From the NCBI RefSeq assembly GCF_000007185.1, contig NC_003551.1:1380001-1412000 (forward strand): a DNA stretch of 32,000 nt, read 5' to 3'. The notes under the pieces are model-generated. The model did no database searches. It was not told the origin of the DNA and saw nothing but the letters and a program-made list of their open reading frames with translations. This DNA comes from Methanopyrus kandleri AV19. GTDB taxonomy: Archaea > JAADCQ01 > Methanopyri > Methanopyrales > Methanopyraceae. Made by a program: the position numbers and the translations under genes. This document shows, one piece after another, positions 19,129-29,290 of the stretch (positions are counted from its first letter, which is position 1; the number at the start of each line of letters is the position of its first letter).

Positions 19129-20016
19129 TTACTCACCACGCAGCTGCATCCTCTCCTCTTCCGGGATCTCCGAGATCTCCAGCCCGCGCATGGCCACCTC
19201 GTCGCCCAGGTTCTTCGACACCTCCGCCACGACCTCCGGGTCGTCGTAGTAGGCCGTCGCTTCGACGATAGCTTCCGCCATCTCCTGCGGTCTATCCGAC
19301 TTGAAGATGCCCGATCCCACGAAGATTCCGTCGGCACCTAGCTGCATCATCAGGGCGGCGTCGGCCGGCGTCGCGATACCGCCCGCGGCGAAGTTCACCA
19401 CCGGCAGCCTGCCCAGGCTCGCGACCTCTGCGACGAGGTCGAACGGCACCCCGTACTCCTTCGCCTTCCCGTAGAGTTCTTCCTTGTCCAGTCGGGTGAG
19501 CTCCGAGATCTCGCGCCGGATGATCCTCATGTGCCGGACGGCCTCGGCGACGTTACCCGTGCCCGCCTCACCCTTCGTCCGGATCATCGCGGCGCCCTCG
19601 GCGATCCTACGTAGCGCCTCACCCAGGTTCCTGGCGCCGCAGACGAACGGCACCTCGAACTCCCACTTGTTGATGTGGTGTTCCTCGTCCGCCGGCGTGA
19701 GGACCTCCGACTCGTCGATCATGTCCACGCCGATCGCCTCCAGAACCTGCGCCTCGGCGACGTGTCCGATCCTGCACTTGGCCATCACGGGGATGGTCAC
19801 GTGGTCCATGATCTCCTCGATCTTGGCGGGGTCGCACATACGGGCGACGCCGCCCGCGGCTCGGATGTCCGCAGGGACCTTCTCCAACACCATCACCGCG
19901 ACCGCACCGGCATCCTCTGCGATCTGAGCCTGCTCGACGTTGGTCACATCCATCACGACGCCTCCTTTCAGCATGCGCGCGAACCCGGTCTTCACACGCC
20001 ACGTACCGGTTTTCAT
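19129..20016 (-). CDS. pdxS: Pyridoxal 5'-phosphate synthase subunit PdxS
   Basis: 295 aa from ATG 20016 ([41 protein letters not shown]...). Near-canonical PdxS/SNZ sequence throughout. The ORF-track extension to 20247 is a spurious N-terminal read-through. Confidence 0.95.
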
Positions 20017-20046
20017 CCGGATCCCCCAATTAACCTGTTGTGAAGG

Positions 20047-20054
20047 TTTATATA
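20047..20054. promoter_or_regulatory. Shared bidirectional TATA box (TTTATATA) between pdxS and the GTPase gene
   Basis: The only AT-rich element in the 67-nt divergent intergenic region. It lies about 31 nt from the pdxS ATG (20016) and about 30 nt from the GTPase ATG (20084), which also has a GGAGGGGGT SD. Confidence 0.5.
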
Positions 20055-20083
20055 GTACGATCACGGGCGCCGGAGGGGGTTGG

Positions 20084-20647
20084 ATGATTTCGGAAGATAG
20101 CGGTAGTAATGAGGATCGGGAGGTTAAGATAGCCGTGATCGGGCCGGAGGACGCCGGCAAGACCACTGTGGTCCGGCAGCTATCCGACAAGTTCACCACG
20201 GTATCGCCCCGTGGGAAGACCGTGGGGATCGACTTCGGGAAGTGCAAGTACTACGAGGGGGTATACATGTTTGGCGTTCCGGGACACCTGCGATTCAAGT
20301 TCGTGATGCGTCTGGGGGCACGGAACGCCGACGGTATGATCCTGGTCATCGACTCGGCCGATCCACGCATAGACAAGGCGGTTAAGATATACAATATCGT
20401 GAAAAGTGTTGTGAAGAACCCGCATCGCGTCGTGGTCTTCGCCAACAAGCAGGACCTCCCCGACGCCCTGTCGCCGGAGCAGGTCGGGGAACTCGTCAAG
20501 AGGGCACTGGGTATCTCCCCACCCGTGATCGGGACCGTTGCGATTAAAGGGGAGGGGTTACGGGAAGGCCTTGACACCTTGCTCTTCCAGCCCACCTACA
20601 ACGGAACTAATGAAATTGATGATATCGAGATTAAAGGGATCCGCTGA
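20084..20647 (+). CDS. Small Ras-superfamily GTPase, MglA-like / COG2229-type
   Basis: 187 aa. G1 GPEDAGKT, G3 FGVPGH (no Asp, His for Gln), G4 NKQD, G5-like AIKGEG. ATG 20084 preceded by an SD. The ORF-track start 19940 overlaps pdxS and is rejected. Confidence 0.85.
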
Positions 20648-20668
20648 GCCCCTACAGGGGTCCCGACG

Positions 20669-21601
20669 TTGCCCGTCCCCGTCAAGAACAGGGCCACCCT
20701 CGCCCAATTGATGTTATCCTATGGGATCACGATATGCGTAGACGAGGATGTCCTCCGGGCCATCAACGAGATGACGTTCGGGCAACTGCCTATGATCCTG
20801 GATGAGTCCGTCAACGTCCCCTTAGAGTATGAGGAGAACATCATAGACGCTGAATTGGTATCACTGTTGGAGTTCGGTGAGGATATGGTATCCTCCCTCC
20901 TCGACATGATCGTTGTCGTGAGGGTGAACGCCGTCAACGGTACCGGCACACCGTGGGAGTTATTAAACACCATCCTACTGGCCGACAATCCGGGAAAAGT
21001 CGAGTTAAACGGTTCTTACTTCTCCATCTTCGCTATCGACGAGAGACAGATCGTATACATATCGAGCAGCGGGAGACGTCGGATACCGTACACCGATCTC
21101 ACTTACATGAAAGACATATCGGAATGGGTGAATGCGCGCAATATAATGTCCCCGAATTACGCATATATATATGACGAGAGCGCGCTCAACATTACGGAGG
21201 ATGTGCTAAAGAAGAGATACAGGGCGAGTATCAAAGGATTATCAGAATTGCTTGATAGACCTAAACATTGGGTGCGAATTGATACTACTATTACGGAGAA
21301 AAAGGACGGTATATTGATTAGAGATAGACTTCTTGATTGGATAGAACCATTAGAATTCACTAAGATAACGGTAAGACGTGATGTGGATGAGCCAGCTATC
21401 GAGGCAATTACTGGTGAGTCAAAAGTGAATAAGGTGTATGCACTTAGGGTATTCAGGGAGATCAAACCCGGATTCAAAACGTACCGTGAACTCGTGGAGA
21501 GGGCCCAGTTACCGGATTCTATAGTGAAGTCCACCTTAGCACTGTTCACGAGGTTTAACTTCCTGATGTATTCATTCAAGTACACTCCTCCGATAATTTA
21601 G
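20669..21601 (+). CDS. Uncharacterised 310-aa protein, low-GC, I/N/K/Y-rich; possible C-terminal winged helix
   Basis: An uninterrupted 933-nt ORF in DNA that falls to about 35% G+C, where random stops should be frequent. TTG 20669 lies 8 nt after AGGGGT and 21 nt after the GTPase stop. The C-terminal KTYRELVERAQLPDSIVKSTLALFTRFNFL looks HTH-like. Confidence 0.75.
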   Translation: MPVPVKNRATLAQLMLSYGITICVDEDVLRAINEMTFGQLPMILDESVNVPLEYEENIIDAELVSLLEFGEDMVSSLLDMIVVVRVNAVNGTGTPWELLNTILLADNPGKVELNGSYFSIFAIDERQIVYISSSGRRRIPYTDLTYMKDISEWVNARNIMSPNYAYIYDESALNITEDVLKKRYRASIKGLSELLDRPKHWVRIDTTITEKKDGILIRDRLLDWIEPLEFTKITVRRDVDEPAIEAITGESKVNKVYALRVFREIKPGFKTYRELVERAQLPDSIVKSTLALFTRFNFLMYSFKYTPPII

Positions 21602-21621
21602 CTCCGCGGGGGGAACGTAGT

Positions 21622-22089
21622 ATGACTTCTGAGGCATTCACCGGAAAATACACTCAGGTGGTACTCAAAGTGCCTGTGTATAAGAGTGCAGGTGTTGAGT
21701 ACAAACCGTCACTGTATGTGATTCCGATGTGTTTTCAGGGCGATCTGATAGCGGGCGAGCTGGCCGTCGCCACCCTACTTTTCGTGATAATCGTGGGCTC
21801 CCTCTCGTTGATCTCCCTTCGGAACGCCATTCATGCCAGGGATAAGGGCCGAGTCGTACTCCACATCGGGATGCTGACGTTCCTGGCGTCGTTCACGTAC
21901 GCCGCGTTCCGAATGGTCCAATCGTCCCTTTTCGTGCCGGTGGGACCACCGTCACCCAGAACGGTCGCAGTGCCCCCGGCGATCGTGAGCGGCAACGAGA
22001 TCAACATGGTCTTCGTGGCGTCGCTGATCGGCCTCGGTTTGGTCGTGGTCGGAGCCATCGCGTCGATGACACGGCGCATCCGCGTGTAG
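21622..22089 (+). CDS. Small membrane protein (about 3 TM helices) of unknown function
   Basis: 155 aa. ATG 21622 follows a GGGGGG SD, 20 nt after the previous stop. Hydrophobic segments LAVATLLFVIIVGSLSLISL, VVLHIGMLTFLASFTYAAF and MVFVASLIGLGLVVVGAIASM. Confidence 0.7.
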   Translation: MTSEAFTGKYTQVVLKVPVYKSAGVEYKPSLYVIPMCFQGDLIAGELAVATLLFVIIVGSLSLISLRNAIHARDKGRVVLHIGMLTFLASFTYAAFRMVQSSLFVPVGPPSPRTVAVPPAIVSGNEINMVFVASLIGLGLVVVGAIASMTRRIRV

Positions 22090-22136
22090 TTCCCTCTCCC
22101 CTCACCCATCGTTAAGAGTGACGTAACGTTAGGGGG

Positions 22137-22895
22137 ATGTCCGTGACGAAGGTCTACTTCGTCGGCGCCGGTCCGGGCGACCCCGAGCTGATGACGTTGA
22201 AGGGTGTACGGGTGCTTCGACGGGCTGACCTCGTGATATACCCCGGTTCGCTGATTCCTCGTGAGTCTGTGGAGGAATGGGCCCCGAACGCCGAGCTCAT
22301 CGACAGTCACGGCAAGACACTGGAGGAGCTGGTGGAGACCATGGTCGAAGCCGTGGAGGACAGCCGTACCGTGGTACGACTAGTTTCGGGAGATCCCTTC
22401 GTCTACAGCTCACTGTACGAACAAGTCCGCGAACTCAGACGACGGGGAGTGGATTACGAGGTGATCCCCGGCGTAAGCTCCGTCAACGCCGCCGCAGCGG
22501 CACTAGGTGAGGAGCTGACGAAACCCGGGATCAGTCAGACGGTGATACTCACCCGCCCGGCCGGGAGGACCGGGAAGCCCGAAGGTGAGTCGCTTTCCGA
22601 GCTCGCGGAGCACGGTTGCACGATGGTGATCTTCCTGGGGGCCGCTTACCTGGAGCGCATCGTGAAGTCACTGCTCGGAGGCGCGTACGACGAGGATACC
22701 CCGGCCGCCGTCGTGTACAAGGCGTCCACACCCGAGGAGAAGGTGATCCTGGGTACGCTAGGAGACATCGCTGAGAAGGCGCGTGAGGAGGGTATCGATA
22801 GGACCGCCCTGATCATCGTGGGTGACGTCTTGAAGGAGGAGGGGAAGAGGTCTCACTTATACTCGGAGGAGTACGCGAGGAGGGTGCGGAGATGA
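22137..22895 (+). CDS. cbiF: Cobalt-precorrin-4 C11-methyltransferase
   Basis: KVYFVGAGPGDPELMTLKGVRVLRRADLVIYPGSLIP is the CbiF/CobM N-terminal signature. 252 aa. Class III tetrapyrrole methylase layout. Confidence 0.88.
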   Translation: MSVTKVYFVGAGPGDPELMTLKGVRVLRRADLVIYPGSLIPRESVEEWAPNAELIDSHGKTLEELVETMVEAVEDSRTVVRLVSGDPFVYSSLYEQVRELRRRGVDYEVIPGVSSVNAAAAALGEELTKPGISQTVILTRPAGRTGKPEGESLSELAEHGCTMVIFLGAAYLERIVKSLLGGAYDEDTPAAVVYKASTPEEKVILGTLGDIAEKAREEGIDRTALIIVGDVLKEEGKRSHLYSEEYARRVRR

Positions 22896-24634: not shown

Positions 24635-26872
<2,238 letters not shown>

Positions 26873-26876
<4 letters not shown>

Positions 26877-27622
26877 CCACGATCCCCCGGCTGAACTTCG
26901 GTAAGCTCCTTAAGCCTTTTCGAGATCCTCGAAATGGACTCGGTAGTCGTGGCCAGATTGATACCCTCTACCTCCGCGATCTTGATTCCAATGTCATCCA
27001 CCTCACTTTTATCAATACCATGTAGTACCACCGCGCTCGGTTTGACCCCCGCCGCCTTGATGGCCACCATCGGGGAGCGCCCTCGGTCGATCCTCGTGAA
27101 CACCAATACCCTGTTCGGGCACTCCCCGTACACCCGAATGAGGGACCGTGCGGGGACCTCCAGTATCGTCTTCACACTGTCGATCACCGTGTACCCGAAC
27201 ACATCCACGTTACCGTGATGGACCACGGGTTCCGCCTCGATTGCTTCATAGACCTCTTCGAGTTTTCTCGGGTAGGGGAACTCACCGATGCCGATTAAGG
27301 TGACTAGTAACTCCTCGCTGAACAGGACGTTCTCGAGCGCGGAGACGATGTTACCACCGCGCTCCTCGTCGATCTCTATAAGTGCTTCCACGAACTTCCG
27401 CACGGTGTCGACCCGAGGGGCTTTAGTCTTCCCAGTTTCGTACTCACTGATGACCGACGGTGACACGCCCATCCGCCTGGCGACCTCGACCTGTGAAGCG
27501 TGGAACACCTTCCGCCACTTCCTCATTACCTTCCCCGGGTGCTCCGACGCGGCGATGTCGCCGACGATCCTTTTTAGCACGAGGCTCCTCGGCAACGAGA
27601 TCACTCCCCGCGGGTGATTCAA
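26873..27622 (-). CDS. XRE-family HTH transcriptional regulator with a C-terminal domain of unknown function (COG1709-like)
   Basis: [47 protein letters not shown] is an HTH_3 module. Its 3' end overlaps the HMG-CoA synthase start by 4 nt. The start is ambiguous: TTG 27622, GTG 27604, TTG 27595 or GTG 27580. Confidence 0.8.
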
Positions 27623-29290
27623 GTGCTCGACGGAGGACTGACGCTGTTAGTACTCACCGCCCTGGCACTGTTCAGGGAGAGGAAGAAGCGGCCGCAAAAG
27701 GTCTCGGTGGTGATTCCGGCGTACAACGAAGAGAAGACTGTAGCTCGCGTAGTTCGGGCCGCGAAGGAATGCGACCTGGTTAACGAGGTAATAGTTGTAG
27801 ATGACGGTAGTGAGGATAGGACCGCGGAAGAGGCCGAAGCCGCCGGCGCCATCGTGATCTCGCACTCGGTAAACCGCGGCAAGGGAGAGGCGATGAAAAC
27901 CGGGCTAAAACACGCCTCCGGCGAGATCGTGGCCTTCGTGGATGCCGACATCAAGAACATTCGACCCGAGATGATCGAGAAGATGATCCGGCCCGTACTC
28001 GAGGGGGAGGCGGATCTCGTCAAGACCAAGTTCAAGCGCAAGGCGGGCAGGGTCACGCTCCTGACCGCCAAACCCCTACTGAGGTTCTTCTTCCCGGAGG
28101 TCGCGCACTTGGAGCAACCGCTCAGCGGACAGATCTGCGCCCGTAGGAAGCTGCTCGAGCGCGTCGACTTCGAGCCGGACTACGGTGTGGACATCGGTAT
28201 AATCCTCGACGCCGTAGCCCTCGGCGCCAGGATCGAGGAGGTGGACATCGGTGAGATCAAGCACGAGATGCAACCCCTGGAACGACTCCACCGGATGGCC
28301 CTCCAGGTCGTCCGGACGATCCTGGATCGGGCCCATAAGTACGGTCGTGTCGTCCTCAGGTGGAACGTCGGCAAAGCGCTCAACCGCATGAACCTGGGCG
28401 TGTCCCTGCTCGCCTTGGCCCTCGCCACCCTGTTCTACACGGAGCTCCCGTTGGCGAGCGTGCTGGCGCTGGGGATCCTGGGTCTGGGGATCGCACTGTT
28501 CTCCCTGGCCCAACTCGTCTACGAGCTCCTCCGCGTCGAGGGTAAGAAGCGGCGCATCCTCCGCCCGTTCCTCCACATGCACGCTTCCGTGATCATGTCG
28601 TTGGCGGTCGTCGCCGTGCTCGTCGGTGCGATGTTCTCGTCGATACAGATCGCCCACGACCGCGTCGAGGTCAACCCGCTACCCAGGAAGGTCGTCTGGG
28701 GAGAACGGGAGGTCAAAGCCGAAGGTCCGTACGTGGTGCAGTACGGTCGTGAGTTGAAGATGGGGAGGAACGTCCTCAAGGTGCTGGACCTGAAGCCCGA
28801 CGATGTCCTCGTTTACCAGCGGGGGGAGTACAGGGTCGAGAGCGCGGGCCGTGATAACCTGCTCATGGTCCCGACTGAACTGGCTCGACAGCTCGGGATC
28901 AAGCCGGGGAACGCCACGGACTCGGAGATACGGCTGGCGTTCCGAAACATCACGGTCAAGCGTAAGGTGGAGGGCCCGGACGTCAACATCCGGGTGACCG
29001 CGGTTCTGTCCGCGACCCCCGACCGCGCCGAGGCCTTGACGGTGTACGTGGACGGTAAGAAGGAGGCGTGGATTCCGGTGGCCACCAGGGGCGGATCCGT
29101 CTACGTGTACGTCTCGGGGTACGGGCTGATAAAGCTGGAAGACCGGAGTGTCGTCTACGTAGGCAACAGGGAGATCCTCCTGAAGCTCGAGGACACCGAC
29201 ATTGAGACGCTCCTCCTCGCTCCGGCCGAGCCGACACCCTTCGCGGTCATCGAGCTCAAGATGCCGTCGGTGAGGGCAGTGGTCGAATGA
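27614..29290 (+). CDS. Membrane glycosyltransferase: GT-A (GT2/GT81, GpgS-like) catalytic domain fused to TM helices and a beta-rich C-terminal domain
   Basis: N-terminal TM. VSVVIPAYNEE, VVDDGSEDRT, FVDADIKN (DxD). GRVTLLTAKPLL...EQPLSGQICARRKLL...DYGVDIGIILD closely parallels the GpgS motif RVTELVARPLL...QPLSGEYA..R.LL...GYGVEIGLLID. Then 3 TM helices and about 190 aa containing LLMVPTELARQLGIKPGN. Confidence 0.85.
   Translation: MIQVLDGGLTLLVLTALALFRERKKRPQKVSVVIPAYNEEKTVARVVRAAKECDLVNEVIVVDDGSEDRTAEEAEAAGAIVISHSVNRGKGEAMKTGLKHASGEIVAFVDADIKNIRPEMIEKMIRPVLEGEADLVKTKFKRKAGRVTLLTAKPLLRFFFPEVAHLEQPLSGQICARRKLLERVDFEPDYGVDIGIILDAVALGARIEEVDIGEIKHEMQPLERLHRMALQVVRTILDRAHKYGRVVLRWNVGKALNRMNLGVSLLALALATLFYTELPLASVLALGILGLGIALFSLAQLVYELLRVEGKKRRILRPFLHMHASVIMSLAVVAVLVGAMFSSIQIAHDRVEVNPLPRKVVWGEREVKAEGPYVVQYGRELKMGRNVLKVLDLKPDDVLVYQRGEYRVESAGRDNLLMVPTELARQLGIKPGNATDSEIRLAFRNITVKRKVEGPDVNIRVTAVLSATPDRAEALTVYVDGKKEAWIPVATRGGSVYVYVSGYGLIKLEDRSVVYVGNREILLKLEDTDIETLLLAPAEPTPFAVIELKMPSVRAVVE

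What the first reader, a model, noticed from the sequence alone, without database searches (positions are those of the whole stretch)
20047..22089. Low-GC three-gene cassette (MglA-like GTPase + 310-aa orphan + 3-TM protein) between pdxS and cbiF: candidate undescribed GTPase-switch module
Seen: three co-directional genes with gaps of 21 and 20 nt, each start preceded by a G-rich SD, sit between two core biosynthetic genes. My hand counts of G+C are 53% (20701-20760), 35% (21241-21360) and 67% in the next gene (22141-22200). The encoded proteins switch from the E/R/V/G-rich style of the rest of the window to an I/N/K/Y/S-rich one. Established: prokaryotic Ras-like GTPases of this type usually work with dedicated partners encoded next door. 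Examples are MglA with the Roadblock/LC7 GAP MglB, and actinobacterial conservons with CvnB Roadblock, CvnC wHTH and CvnD GTPase plus a membrane sensor. Inference: no recognisable Roadblock, kinase or GEF/GAP gene is present here. The 310-aa protein and the small membrane protein are therefore the likely cognate partners, that is, a non-canonical membrane-linked GTPase module acquired horizontally. No integrase, tRNA or flanking direct repeat is visible, so it is not an obvious mobile element.
Basis: partly seen in the sequence, partly recalled or inferred. Interest (0 to 1): 0.8.

Follow-up and report, generated by a model that had tools for sequence, protein, structure and literature searches.

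The report
Methanopyrus GTPase module with novel partners
In the hot-vent archaeon Methanopyrus kandleri, an already catalogued small molecular-switch protein (GTPase MK1372) always sits next to two proteins found only in this lineage, so the three probably form a new version of a GTPase signalling module, and it is old rather than recently imported.

Summary
Three co-directional genes (187-aa GTPase, 310-aa protein, 155-aa 3-TM protein; gaps 21 and 20 nt) lie between pdxS and cbiF in Methanopyrus kandleri. GC falls to 0.41 against ~0.65 for the window. The GTPase is MK1372, already listed as an uncoupled 'MglA Group 4' GTPase. What is new is the partnership. The 310-aa family forms only 4 clusters among 1.84 billion representatives, all Methanopyri-type as far as named, and follows the GTPase in all nine loci examined. 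The trio recurs as a diverged second copy in another context within one assembly and again in a third assembly. All three genes are under purifying selection (dN/dS 0.05-0.15). Related archaeal GTPases usually pair with KaiC, Roadblock and V4R; none occurs here. The partnered GTPases alone have altered catalytic motifs: G[K/R]T in switch I and GVPG[H/Q/D/S] in G3. The 310-aa protein has a robust C-terminal winged helix and an acidic N-half of unknown fold. Recent horizontal acquisition is not supported. The module is syntenic across diverged lineages and the GTPase clade is sister to Methanobacteriaceae GTPases. The persistent low GC remains unexplained. Verdict: a lineage-restricted new variant of a known kind; mechanism inferred, not shown.

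The parts
20047..20054 (.). TTTATATA TATA-like box at the centre of the 67-nt divergent pdxS(-)/GTPase(+) spacer (20017-20083)
   Evidence: Read directly. It lies 30 nt from the GTPase ATG and about 31 nt from the pdxS start. It is conserved at the same position in Methanopyrus strains L088 and L089. Promoter function is inferred, not shown.
20072..20079 (+). GGAGGGGG Shine-Dalgarno-like run before the GTPase start
20084..20647 (+). Small GTPase MK1372 (187 aa), MglA Group 4 / Arf-like
   Evidence: Pfam Arf E 1e-17, 64.6 bits; TIGR00231 small_GTP 51.6 bits. Listed as MglA Group 4 in the supplement of PMC4316618. dN/dS 0.12-0.15.
20141..20167 (+). G1 P-loop GPEDAGKTT (residues 20-28)
20210..20221 (+). 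Switch I R43-G44-K45-T46: a basic residue sits next to the G2 Thr, where other Group 2-5 MglA proteins have Thr and Group 1 MglA has its intrinsic Arg finger
   Evidence: Motif table: [KR]-T in 6/6 lineages with a 310-aa partner and in 0/77 other loci. MglA alignment. Literature.
20273..20287 (+). G3 G64-V-P-G-H68 in place of the family consensus GTPGQ; the catalytic Gln position varies (H/Q/D/S) within the subgroup
20444..20455 (+). G4 NKQD (residues 121-124), guanine specificity motif
20669..21601 (+). 310-aa Methanopyri-restricted partner protein (p310)
   Evidence: Only 4 full-length clusters among 1.84e9 representatives. Aligns end to end across four subgroups down to 26% identity. dN/dS 0.05-0.09. 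Always lies immediately downstream of the GTPase.
20669..21163 (+). p310 N-terminal half (residues 1-165): acidic alpha/beta region of unknown fold
   Evidence: Net charge -11 to -25 in all five lineages tested. No Pfam, NCBIfam, PDB or hhalign match. AF2 pLDDT 30-63.
21164..21418 (+). p310 middle helical region (residues 166-250)
   Evidence: AF2 pLDDT 62-86, helices 170-182, 188-195, 199-213, 241-248. A possible first winged-helix-like unit; this is inference.
21419..21583 (+). p310 C-terminal winged helix-turn-helix (residues ~251-305)
   Evidence: Pfam HTH_9 23.6 bits against a 23.4 cutoff. It recurs in 10/11 family members, best E 1.5e-5. AF2 pLDDT 86-90. The top Foldseek hit is the RPC39 winged helix, prob 0.99 but E 0.12.
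21622..22089 (+). 155-aa three-TM membrane protein
   Evidence: Hydropathy peaks at residues 47-65, 78-96 and 129-147. Homologues follow p310 in L005, L009, L088, L089 and L090, with conserved YV(I/L)P-C, A-x-x-A-x-D-x-x-R and a basic C-terminal tail. dN/dS 0.05-0.11. Absent in L004/L008.
21760..21816 (+). TM helix 1
21853..21909 (+). TM helix 2
22006..22062 (+). TM helix 3

Best explanation
The three genes form a Methanopyri-specific GTPase switch module built on a vertically inherited archaeal MglA-family (Group 4) GTPase. In most archaea this GTPase family is encoded with KaiC-like ATPases, a Roadblock/LC7 protein and a V4R protein. In the sister Methanobacteriaceae it stands alone. In Methanopyri it is instead co-transcribed with a 310-aa protein (acidic N-half of unknown fold, helical middle, C-terminal winged helix) and usually with a small 3-TM protein. 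Proposed mechanism (inferred, not shown): the 310-aa protein binds the GTPase as its dedicated regulator or effector and takes the place of the Roadblock platform. The GTPase's remodelled active site fits a changed hydrolysis mechanism matched to the new partner: a Lys/Arg next to the G2 threonine and loss of the fixed catalytic Gln. The 3-TM protein would tether or gate the complex at the membrane through its conserved basic cytoplasmic loop and tail, and it is dispensable in one lineage. The winged helix would provide the output, either DNA binding or protein docking. The module is ancient in this lineage, not a recent import. Rough sub-probabilities: the three genes form a functional unit, ~0.8; the 310-aa protein physically partners the GTPase, ~0.6; it is specifically the GAP or GEF, ~0.3.
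For: Linkage: the 310-aa gene sits 18-24 nt downstream of the GTPase in window, L088, L089, L004, L008, L009, L010 (truncated), L005 and L090. Moves as a unit: assembly GCA_054007815.1 holds both a syntenic trio (L089) and a diverged trio in an MFS/HMD context (L005; GTPase 60%, p310 29%, TM ~26% identity). A third assembly carries the second type again (L090). Function retained: dN/dS is 0.05-0.15 for all three genes, within the flank range of 0.004-0.23. Restricted family: the exhaustive HMMER profile search finds 4 clusters, and the only other hit is a spurious EcKL kinase. Partner swap: 61 of the ~77 other GTPase loci carry KaiC and/or Roadblock/V4R, and none of these occurs in any Methanopyri locus searched (window, L004, L005, L008-L010). 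Correlated active-site change: G[KR]T and GVPG[HQDS] occur only in the GTPases with a p310 partner; elsewhere the motifs are GTT (with minor variants, always Thr before the G2 Thr) and GTPGQ. Group 1 MglA has its intrinsic Arg finger at that same position. Winged helix. Vertical descent: synteny with diverged flanks and an NJ clade sister to Methanobacteriaceae. Operon: 20-21 nt gaps, SD-like runs and one upstream TATA box conserved in three strains.
Against: The 310-aa protein shows no detectable similarity to any GAP, GEF, Roadblock, longin or V4R protein, and its N-half model is low-confidence. The TM gene is missing in L004/L008, so the membrane link is not obligatory. M. kandleri has two orphan MglB homologues that could be the real GAP. 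The winged-helix region is basic in only 3 of 5 lineages, so the output mode is unclear. The NJ tree has no support values. L089 and L005 come from a MAG, so 'same genome' assumes correct binning.
Confidence: 0.6

Rival explanations
1. The true GAP/GEF of MK1372 is one of the orphan Roadblock/MglB homologues encoded elsewhere (MK0216, MK1325). The 310-aa and TM proteins are then downstream effectors. The most specific version is a GTPase-controlled winged-helix transcription factor, with a membrane protein that sequesters or senses.
For: Orphan MglB homologues are listed for M. kandleri. The winged helix is robust, and the C-terminal region is basic (pI 9.5-10.2) in window, L009 and L090. Weak Foldseek hits are dominated by DNA-binding wHTH regulators such as Lrp/AsnC, MarR and Csa3.
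Against: The active-site remodelling is specific to the GTPases with a p310 partner, which points to a change in catalytic partner and not only in output. The winged-helix region is neutral or acidic in L004 and L005. HTH_9/RPC82-type winged helices are often protein-binding modules (own knowledge). No target DNA motif was identified.
Confidence: 0.25
2. The cassette is a recently and horizontally acquired low-GC island, possibly a remnant of a mobile or defence element.
For: The low-GC block is sharp-edged and coincides with the three genes in two different genomic contexts. A second copy lies in a region rich in unannotated genes. The partner proteins diverge fast, and p310 has elevated dS.
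Against: The module is syntenic at pdxS|cbiF in at least four diverged lineages, and GTPase divergence (75-78%) matches the flanking genes. The GTPase clade is sister to Methanobacteriaceae. The L009 copy is fully GC-equilibrated. There are no relatives on viral contigs, phages or plasmids, and no viral fold match. PADLOC and PHROGs give no significant hits. No tRNA, integrase or flanking repeats are present.
Confidence: 0.07
3. The adjacency is operonic hitch-hiking. The three proteins have unrelated functions and merely share the promoter that also drives cbiF-cbiG-cbiH.
For: No promoter-like or terminator-like element is visible between the TM stop and the cbiF start. The TM gene can be lost.
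Against: The trio is retained together in a second, cbi-independent context in two assemblies. The GTPase-p310 pairing is invariant across nine loci. GTPase motif changes correlate with the pairing.
Confidence: 0.05

Closest known systems
MglA Group 4 GTPases of methanogenic Euryarchaeota (Wuichet & Sogaard-Andersen 2014, PMC4316618)
   Same: MK1372 itself is listed in this group. It is a short single-domain GTPase that lacks the canonical G3 aspartate and lacks the bacterial G1-G2 insertion. Its nearest eukaryotic relatives are Arf/Sar.
   Different: The paper reported no conserved neighbours for Group 4. Here a conserved two-gene partner set is found for the Methanopyri branch. That branch also departs from the Group 2-5 consensus: GVPG[HQDS] instead of GTPGQ, and K/R instead of Thr next to the G2 Thr.
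MglA/MglB (Group 1) polarity switch of Myxococcus and Thermus
   Same: A small GTPase with a dedicated partner encoded next door. A basic residue lies adjacent to the G2 Thr, where MglA has its intrinsic Arg finger, and the G3 has V-P-G.
   Different: Identity is only 24%. There is no Roadblock partner in the locus. The residue is Lys in M. kandleri and Arg only in some lineages. The Gln is not conserved. The partner is a 310-aa protein with a winged helix.
Archaeal KaiC-like ATPase + KaiC::GTPase fusion + Roadblock/LC7 + V4R operons
   Same: Homologous GTPase domain (35-46% identity) from the same broad family.
   Different: None of the three partner families is present. The GTPase is unfused and short. 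hhalign finds no relation between p310 and Roadblock, V4R or KaiC (probability below 1%).
Actinobacterial conservon (CvnA membrane histidine kinase, CvnB Roadblock, CvnC, CvnD MglA Group 2)
   Same: The logic is the same: an MglA-family GTPase encoded with a membrane protein and further soluble partners, proposed to be a signalling unit.
   Different: No component other than the GTPase is homologous. There is no kinase domain, no Roadblock and no DUF742 hit. This is an analogy only.
GATOR1 NPRL2/NPRL3 (longin plus winged-helix GAP for Rag GTPases)
   Same: An architecture combining an alpha/beta platform with winged-helix domains in a GTPase regulator (own knowledge). Weak Foldseek hits to these chains (E 0.3-0.8, prob 0.5-0.6).
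   Different: The hits are not significant. The N-half of the model is unreliable, and no sequence similarity exists. This is a lead, not evidence.

Membership tests
MglA family, Group 4 (Wuichet & Sogaard-Andersen 2014) | Placement in the published classification | tested here: met
   The supplementary table lists 'MglA Group 4 | Methanopyrus kandleri AV19 | MK1372 | 187'. The window protein is 187 aa and comes from M. kandleri. This is a match on organism, length and family, not a sequence check against MK1372.
MglA family, Group 4 (Wuichet & Sogaard-Andersen 2014) | G3 lacks the canonical Asp of DxxG | tested here: met
   The G3 is F-G-V-P-G-H, with Gly at the Asp position.
MglA family, Group 4 (Wuichet & Sogaard-Andersen 2014) | Group 2-5 consensus G3 = GTPGQ with catalytic Gln | tested here: not met
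   GVPGH in the window; H, Q, D or S at the Gln position across the subgroup.
MglA family, Group 4 (Wuichet & Sogaard-Andersen 2014) | Thr (not Arg) adjacent to the G2 Thr in Groups 2-5 | tested here: not met
   K45-T46 in the window; K or R in all six lineages with a p310 partner, and always Thr in the 77 other loci.
MglA family, Group 4 (Wuichet & Sogaard-Andersen 2014) | Absence of the bacterial G1-G2 insertion | tested here: met
   A 10-residue gap relative to M. xanthus MglA between G1 and G2, as described for archaeal forms.
MglA/MglB coupled system | MglB (Roadblock/LC7) gene within four genes of the GTPase | tested here: not met
   No Roadblock HMM hit in the 32-kb window or in the Methanopyri loci searched (window, L004, L005, L008-L010). 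The published table lists the GTPase as uncoupled.
Arf/Sar family (Pfam PF00025) | Score above the Pfam gathering threshold | tested here: met
   64.6 bits against a 22.3 cutoff. Arf proteins are the best PDB matches, E 8.6e-16.
Arf/Sar family (Pfam PF00025) | DxxGQ G3 motif | tested here: not met
   GVPGH.
Arf/Sar family (Pfam PF00025) | N-terminal amphipathic membrane-binding helix | tested here: not met
   The N-terminus [13 protein letters not shown] is acidic and not amphipathic (read directly). No hydrophobic segment is present.
Actinobacterial conservon | CvnA histidine kinase, CvnB Roadblock and CvnC (DUF742) encoded with the GTPase | tested here: not met
   Pfam and NCBIfam give no kinase, Roadblock or DUF742 hit for p310 or the TM protein.
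Archaeal KaiC-GTPase-Roadblock-V4R operon | KaiC-like ATPase, Roadblock and V4R neighbours, or a KaiC::GTPase fusion | tested here: not met
   HMMs built from 53 Roadblock, 20 V4R and 51 KaiC neighbours find nothing in the Methanopyri loci searched. The GTPase is 187 aa and unfused.
Winged helix-turn-helix (Pfam HTH_9 / RPC82-type) for the p310 C-terminus | Profile match and the helix-helix-helix-wing topology | tested here: met
   23.6 bits against a 23.4 cutoff. 10/11 members match, best E 1.5e-5. The AF2 model has H255-265, H272-279, H283-295 and E299-303 at pLDDT 86-90. The top Foldseek hit is a winged helix, though E is only 0.12.
Roadblock/longin fold for the p310 N-terminal half | alpha-beta-beta-alpha-beta-beta-beta(-alpha) sandwich, or profile similarity | tested here: inconclusive
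Known anti-phage defence systems (PADLOC) or phage protein families (PHROGs) | Significant profile match for any of the three proteins | tested here: not met
   Only P-loop-level or E>0.001 hits.

The most novel reading that the evidence does not exclude
The 310-aa protein is a new class of small-GTPase regulator, a GAP and/or GEF with a fold unrelated to Roadblock/longin. Together with a 3-TM anchor it replaced the ancestral KaiC/Roadblock/V4R machinery in Methanopyri, and the GTPase co-evolved a Group-1-like intrinsic basic finger while giving up its catalytic glutamine. This would be a natural example of wholesale regulator replacement in an MglA-family switch, with a winged-helix output.
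Probability: 0.25. Interest if true: 0.65.

Novelty: new variant of a known kind. Interest (0 to 1): 0.45.

Why it matters
Archaeal MglA Group 4 GTPases are considered close relatives of the eukaryotic Arf/Sar/SRbeta lineage. The main survey of prokaryotic small GTPases found no conserved partners for them, so their biology is essentially unknown. This locus gives a concrete, testable partner set for one branch: a winged-helix-containing 310-aa protein and a small membrane protein. It also shows that the GTPase active site changed together with the partner set, which makes the question of how hydrolysis is catalysed and regulated directly addressable in vitro with three small proteins. The scope is narrow, since the partners are confined to the class Methanopyri. 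The persistent low GC of an old, vertically inherited and selected module in a 62-65% GC hyperthermophile is a separate small puzzle about codon-usage evolution.

Tried and rejected
1. A first AF2 model from a shallow alignment (pLDDT 42) was unusable. The second model (pLDDT 61) is reliable only for residues ~165-300.
3. hhalign of the p310 family against Roadblock, V4R and KaiC partner alignments gave probabilities below 1%. The idea that p310 is a fused, diverged Roadblock+V4R is therefore not supported by sequence.
4. A profile search against PDB sequences gave only a chance L4 hit at E 0.5.
5. The 1373-aa hit P0020, with six matches to the p310 C-terminus, is an EcKL kinase repeat protein and was rejected as spurious.
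6. Weak hits of the TM protein to DUF3611 and to Na+/H+ antiporter subunit E fall far below the cutoffs and were rejected.
7. Origin from a virus, plasmid or defence system was rejected.
8. tRNA and flanking-repeat searches were negative.
9. The Makarova et al. 2017 paper on KaiC hubs could not be read. My statement that KaiC/GTPase/Roadblock/V4R neighbourhoods are already described in the literature therefore rests on memory only; the neighbourhoods themselves were established here.
10. Literature searches for MK1372 and neighbouring locus tags found nothing relevant.
Full report
OBSERVATION. The window is from Methanopyrus kandleri: the source names attached to the protein hits say so, and identical gene calls occur in public assemblies. 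Three + strand ORFs lie at 20084-20647 (187 aa), 20669-21601 (310 aa, TTG start) and 21622-22089 (155 aa). They are separated by exactly 21 and 20 nt, and each is preceded by a G-rich SD-like run. They sit between pdxS on the minus strand (19129-20016) and a TP_methylase-CbiG-TP_methylase run. The 400-nt GC minimum is 0.41 at 21201-21600, against 0.652 +/- 0.032 for the rest of the window (z = -7.7), and no other stretch of the window drops below 0.557. GC3 falls to 0.60 in the 310-aa gene, against 0.87 in pdxS. Position 20047, the finding's start, is the first base of a TTTATATA box, not a start codon.

THE GTPASE IS KNOWN. The 187-aa protein scores best against Pfam Arf (1e-17) and TIGR small_GTP. 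Arf proteins are its best PDB sequence matches. M. xanthus MglA aligns at only 24% identity; I validated the MglA sequence against PDB at 100% identity before using it. The supplement of Wuichet & Sogaard-Andersen 2014 lists 'Methanopyrus kandleri AV19 MK1372, 187 aa' as MglA Group 4, not coupled to MglB. It also lists two orphan MglB homologues elsewhere in the genome, MK0216 and MK1325. [quoted passage not shown]

THE PARTNERS ARE LINEAGE-RESTRICTED BUT REAL. A word-seeded search of 5.8 billion clusters found the 310-aa protein only in Methanopyrus, and a profile search added one diverged member. The exhaustive HMMER profile search of 1.84 billion representatives found four full-length clusters. 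The only other hit is an EcKL kinase repeat protein, which is spurious. The family aligns end to end in four subgroups down to 26% identity, with 24 invariant positions. Between close strains (window against SNP6 = L088, and against L089), dN/dS is 0.12-0.15 for the GTPase, 0.05-0.09 for the 310-aa gene and 0.05-0.11 for the TM gene. This lies inside the 0.004-0.23 range of the flanking biosynthetic genes. All three are therefore functional protein-coding genes.

THE GENES TRAVEL TOGETHER. The 310-aa gene lies immediately downstream of the GTPase in every Methanopyri-type locus recovered: window, L088, L089, L004, L008, L009, L010 (contig end), L005 and L090. The TM gene follows in window, L088, L089, L009, L005 and L090. 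Its three-TM topology is conserved, as are the YV(I/L)P-C motif, the A-x-x-A-x-D-x-x-R loop and a basic C-terminal tail. The TM gene is absent in the L004/L008 lineage, where cbiF follows directly. L089 (syntenic trio) and L005 (diverged trio between an MFS transporter and HMD) belong to the same assembly, GCA_054007815.1. L090, from a third assembly, carries the second type again. A three-gene unit that has been duplicated and kept intact in a context unrelated to cbi or pdxS is the strongest available evidence of functional coupling.

WHAT THE WIDER FAMILY LOOKS LIKE. A scan of one genome per species returned 80 loci. I called co-directional neighbours, clustered them and annotated cluster representatives. 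The dominant arrangement is a KaiC-like ATPase, a ~390-aa KaiC-domain::GTPase fusion, Roadblock/LC7 and V4R. It occurs in Bathyarchaeia, Aenigmatarchaeota, Archaeoglobaceae, Methanosarcinales/ANME and others. Methanobacteriaceae have a short solo GTPase between aroA and Exo5/Nth-type genes. HMMs built from these Roadblock, V4R and KaiC neighbours find nothing in the window or in the Methanopyri loci searched. hhalign finds no relation between them and the 310-aa family. In an NJ tree of the GTPase domains, all Methanopyri copies (both types) form one clade, sister to the Methanobacteriaceae solo GTPases (no support values were computed). This mirrors organismal relationships.

ACTIVE-SITE REMODELLING CORRELATES WITH THE PARTNER SWAP. 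Across the 77 non-Methanopyri loci, switch I reads x-T-T (commonly G-T-T) and G3 reads G-T-P-G-Q. This is the Group 2-5 consensus described in the literature. All six Methanopyri lineages instead read G-[K/R]-T (window R43-G44-K45-T46) and G-V-P-G-[H/Q/D/S]. The K/R sits next to the G2 threonine, which is where Group 1 MglA carries its essential intrinsic arginine finger. The position of the catalytic glutamine is no longer fixed. I infer that the hydrolysis mechanism changed along with the partner. This is inference: the window protein has Lys, not Arg, at that position, and no biochemistry exists.

WHAT THE 310-AA PROTEIN IS. Its C-terminus is a winged helix. Pfam HTH_9 scores just above threshold in the window protein and recurs in 10 of 11 family members. 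AF2 places H255-265, H272-279, H283-295 and a short strand there at pLDDT 86-90. The best Foldseek match is the RPC39 winged helix, followed by Lrp/AsnC-type regulators, but no hit reaches E 1e-3. Residues 166-250 are helical and moderately confident, and could form a second winged-helix-like unit. Residues 1-165 are strongly acidic in every lineage (net -11 to -25), match nothing and are poorly modelled. The predicted order of secondary-structure elements is compatible with a Roadblock/longin-type sandwich, and weak Foldseek hits to NPRL2/NPRL3 of GATOR1 point the same way. I treat this only as a lead. The winged-helix region is basic in three of five lineages, so DNA binding is possible but not clearly indicated.

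NOT A RECENT IMPORT; THE LOW GC IS UNEXPLAINED. In L004, L008, L009 and L010 the module occupies the same pdxS|cbiF slot. Flanking proteins are 58-96% identical to the window's, the GTPase is 75-78% identical (ordinary), the 310-aa protein is only 37-39% identical, and the TM protein is lost or detectable only by HMM. The module therefore predates these lineages, and its partner proteins diverge fast at depth. Low GC and GC3 persist in window, L088, L089, L004, L008, L005 and, more mildly, L090. The L009 copy, however, is fully equilibrated (GC3 0.93) and its protein is correspondingly less I/N/K/Y/S-rich. The amino-acid 'style' therefore follows nucleotide composition, not function. No relatives exist on viral contigs, phages or plasmids, no viral fold matches, there are no PADLOC or PHROGs hits, and there are no tRNAs or flanking repeats. 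Synonymous divergence of the 310-aa gene is 2-4 times that of the flanks in comparisons involving L089. Why an old, selected module stays AT-rich in several 60-65% GC genomes is not explained by anything I tested.

MECHANISM AND RIVALS. Best explanation (confidence 0.6): a Methanopyri-specific GTPase switch module. In it the 310-aa protein is the dedicated partner of the GTPase, as regulator or effector, and replaces the Roadblock platform. The 3-TM protein is an accessory membrane tether or sensor, and the winged helix is the output. Main rival (0.25): the orphan MglB homologues act as GAP in trans, and the 310-aa protein is purely an effector, most specifically a GTPase-gated transcription factor. 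Minor rivals are a recent HGT, mobile or defence island (0.07) and operonic hitch-hiking (0.05).

VERDICT. The GTPase was already catalogued. The conserved partner set, its duplication as a unit and the correlated active-site change appear to be undescribed. This is a new variant of a known kind, confined to one small archaeal class, with the mechanism inferred only. Interest 0.45.

Noticed in passing
window 20017-20083 (TATA box 20047-20054): A single near-palindromic TTTATATA box sits at the centre of the 67-nt divergent spacer, about 30 nt from both the pdxS and the GTPase start codons. It is conserved in strains L088 and L089. It may serve both genes, which would imply very short or absent 5' leaders even though an SD-like run is present.
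   Followed up: partly
window 22090-22136: The spacer between the TM stop and the cbiF start has no TATA-like or T-run element. It contains a small palindrome (cgttaagagtgacgtaacg) that is conserved in three Methanopyrus strains. The cobalamin genes cbiF-cbiG-cbiH may be co-transcribed with the GTPase module.
   Followed up: partly
window 20669-21601 vs L089 5001-5933: Synonymous divergence of the 310-aa gene (dS 1.1-1.2) is 2-4 times that of the flanking genes (0.2-0.5) in comparisons involving L089, while dN/dS stays low. This could reflect weaker synonymous constraint in the AT-rich gene, or allele replacement.
   Followed up: partly
L009 4986-6873: In one Methanopyri-type lineage the same syntenic module is fully GC-equilibrated (GC 0.65-0.69, GC3 0.87-0.95), unlike all other copies. 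The low GC is therefore not required for function.
   Followed up: partly
window 26600-27800: A second, milder GC trough (0.56-0.59 against ~0.65) lies elsewhere in the window.
   Followed up: no
L016 4299-5471 and about 55 other loci (L018-L087): In many archaeal phyla the homologous GTPase is fused to an N-terminal KaiC-like domain (~390 aa) and flanked by a KaiC ATPase, Roadblock/LC7 and V4R genes. The 2014 GTPase survey that I read does not mention KaiC.
   Followed up: partly
L064, L076, L082, L086 (GTPase G4 motif): GTPases from Asbonarchaeaceae and Nanohalarchaeota carry N-F-Q-N in place of NKQD in G4, which suggests altered nucleotide specificity.
   Followed up: no
L011-L015 (Jordarchaeia / Freyarchaeota; GTPase ~231 aa): The best non-Methanopyri matches are Asgard short GTPases with G3 GTPGH (His, as in M. 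kandleri). They are preceded by two conserved unannotated genes of ~170 and ~175 aa with no Pfam match.
   Followed up: no
L046 (2-kb contig labelled Bacillota MAG): This contig carries an archaeal-type KaiC::GTPase fusion plus Roadblock. It is probably mis-binned rather than a bacterial occurrence.
   Followed up: no
L005 1-6000 and 8000-12500: The second-copy trio sits among several genes with no Pfam hit (174, 297, 150, 328, 94 and 63 aa), next to an MFS transporter and HMD. This may be a variable genomic region.
   Followed up: no
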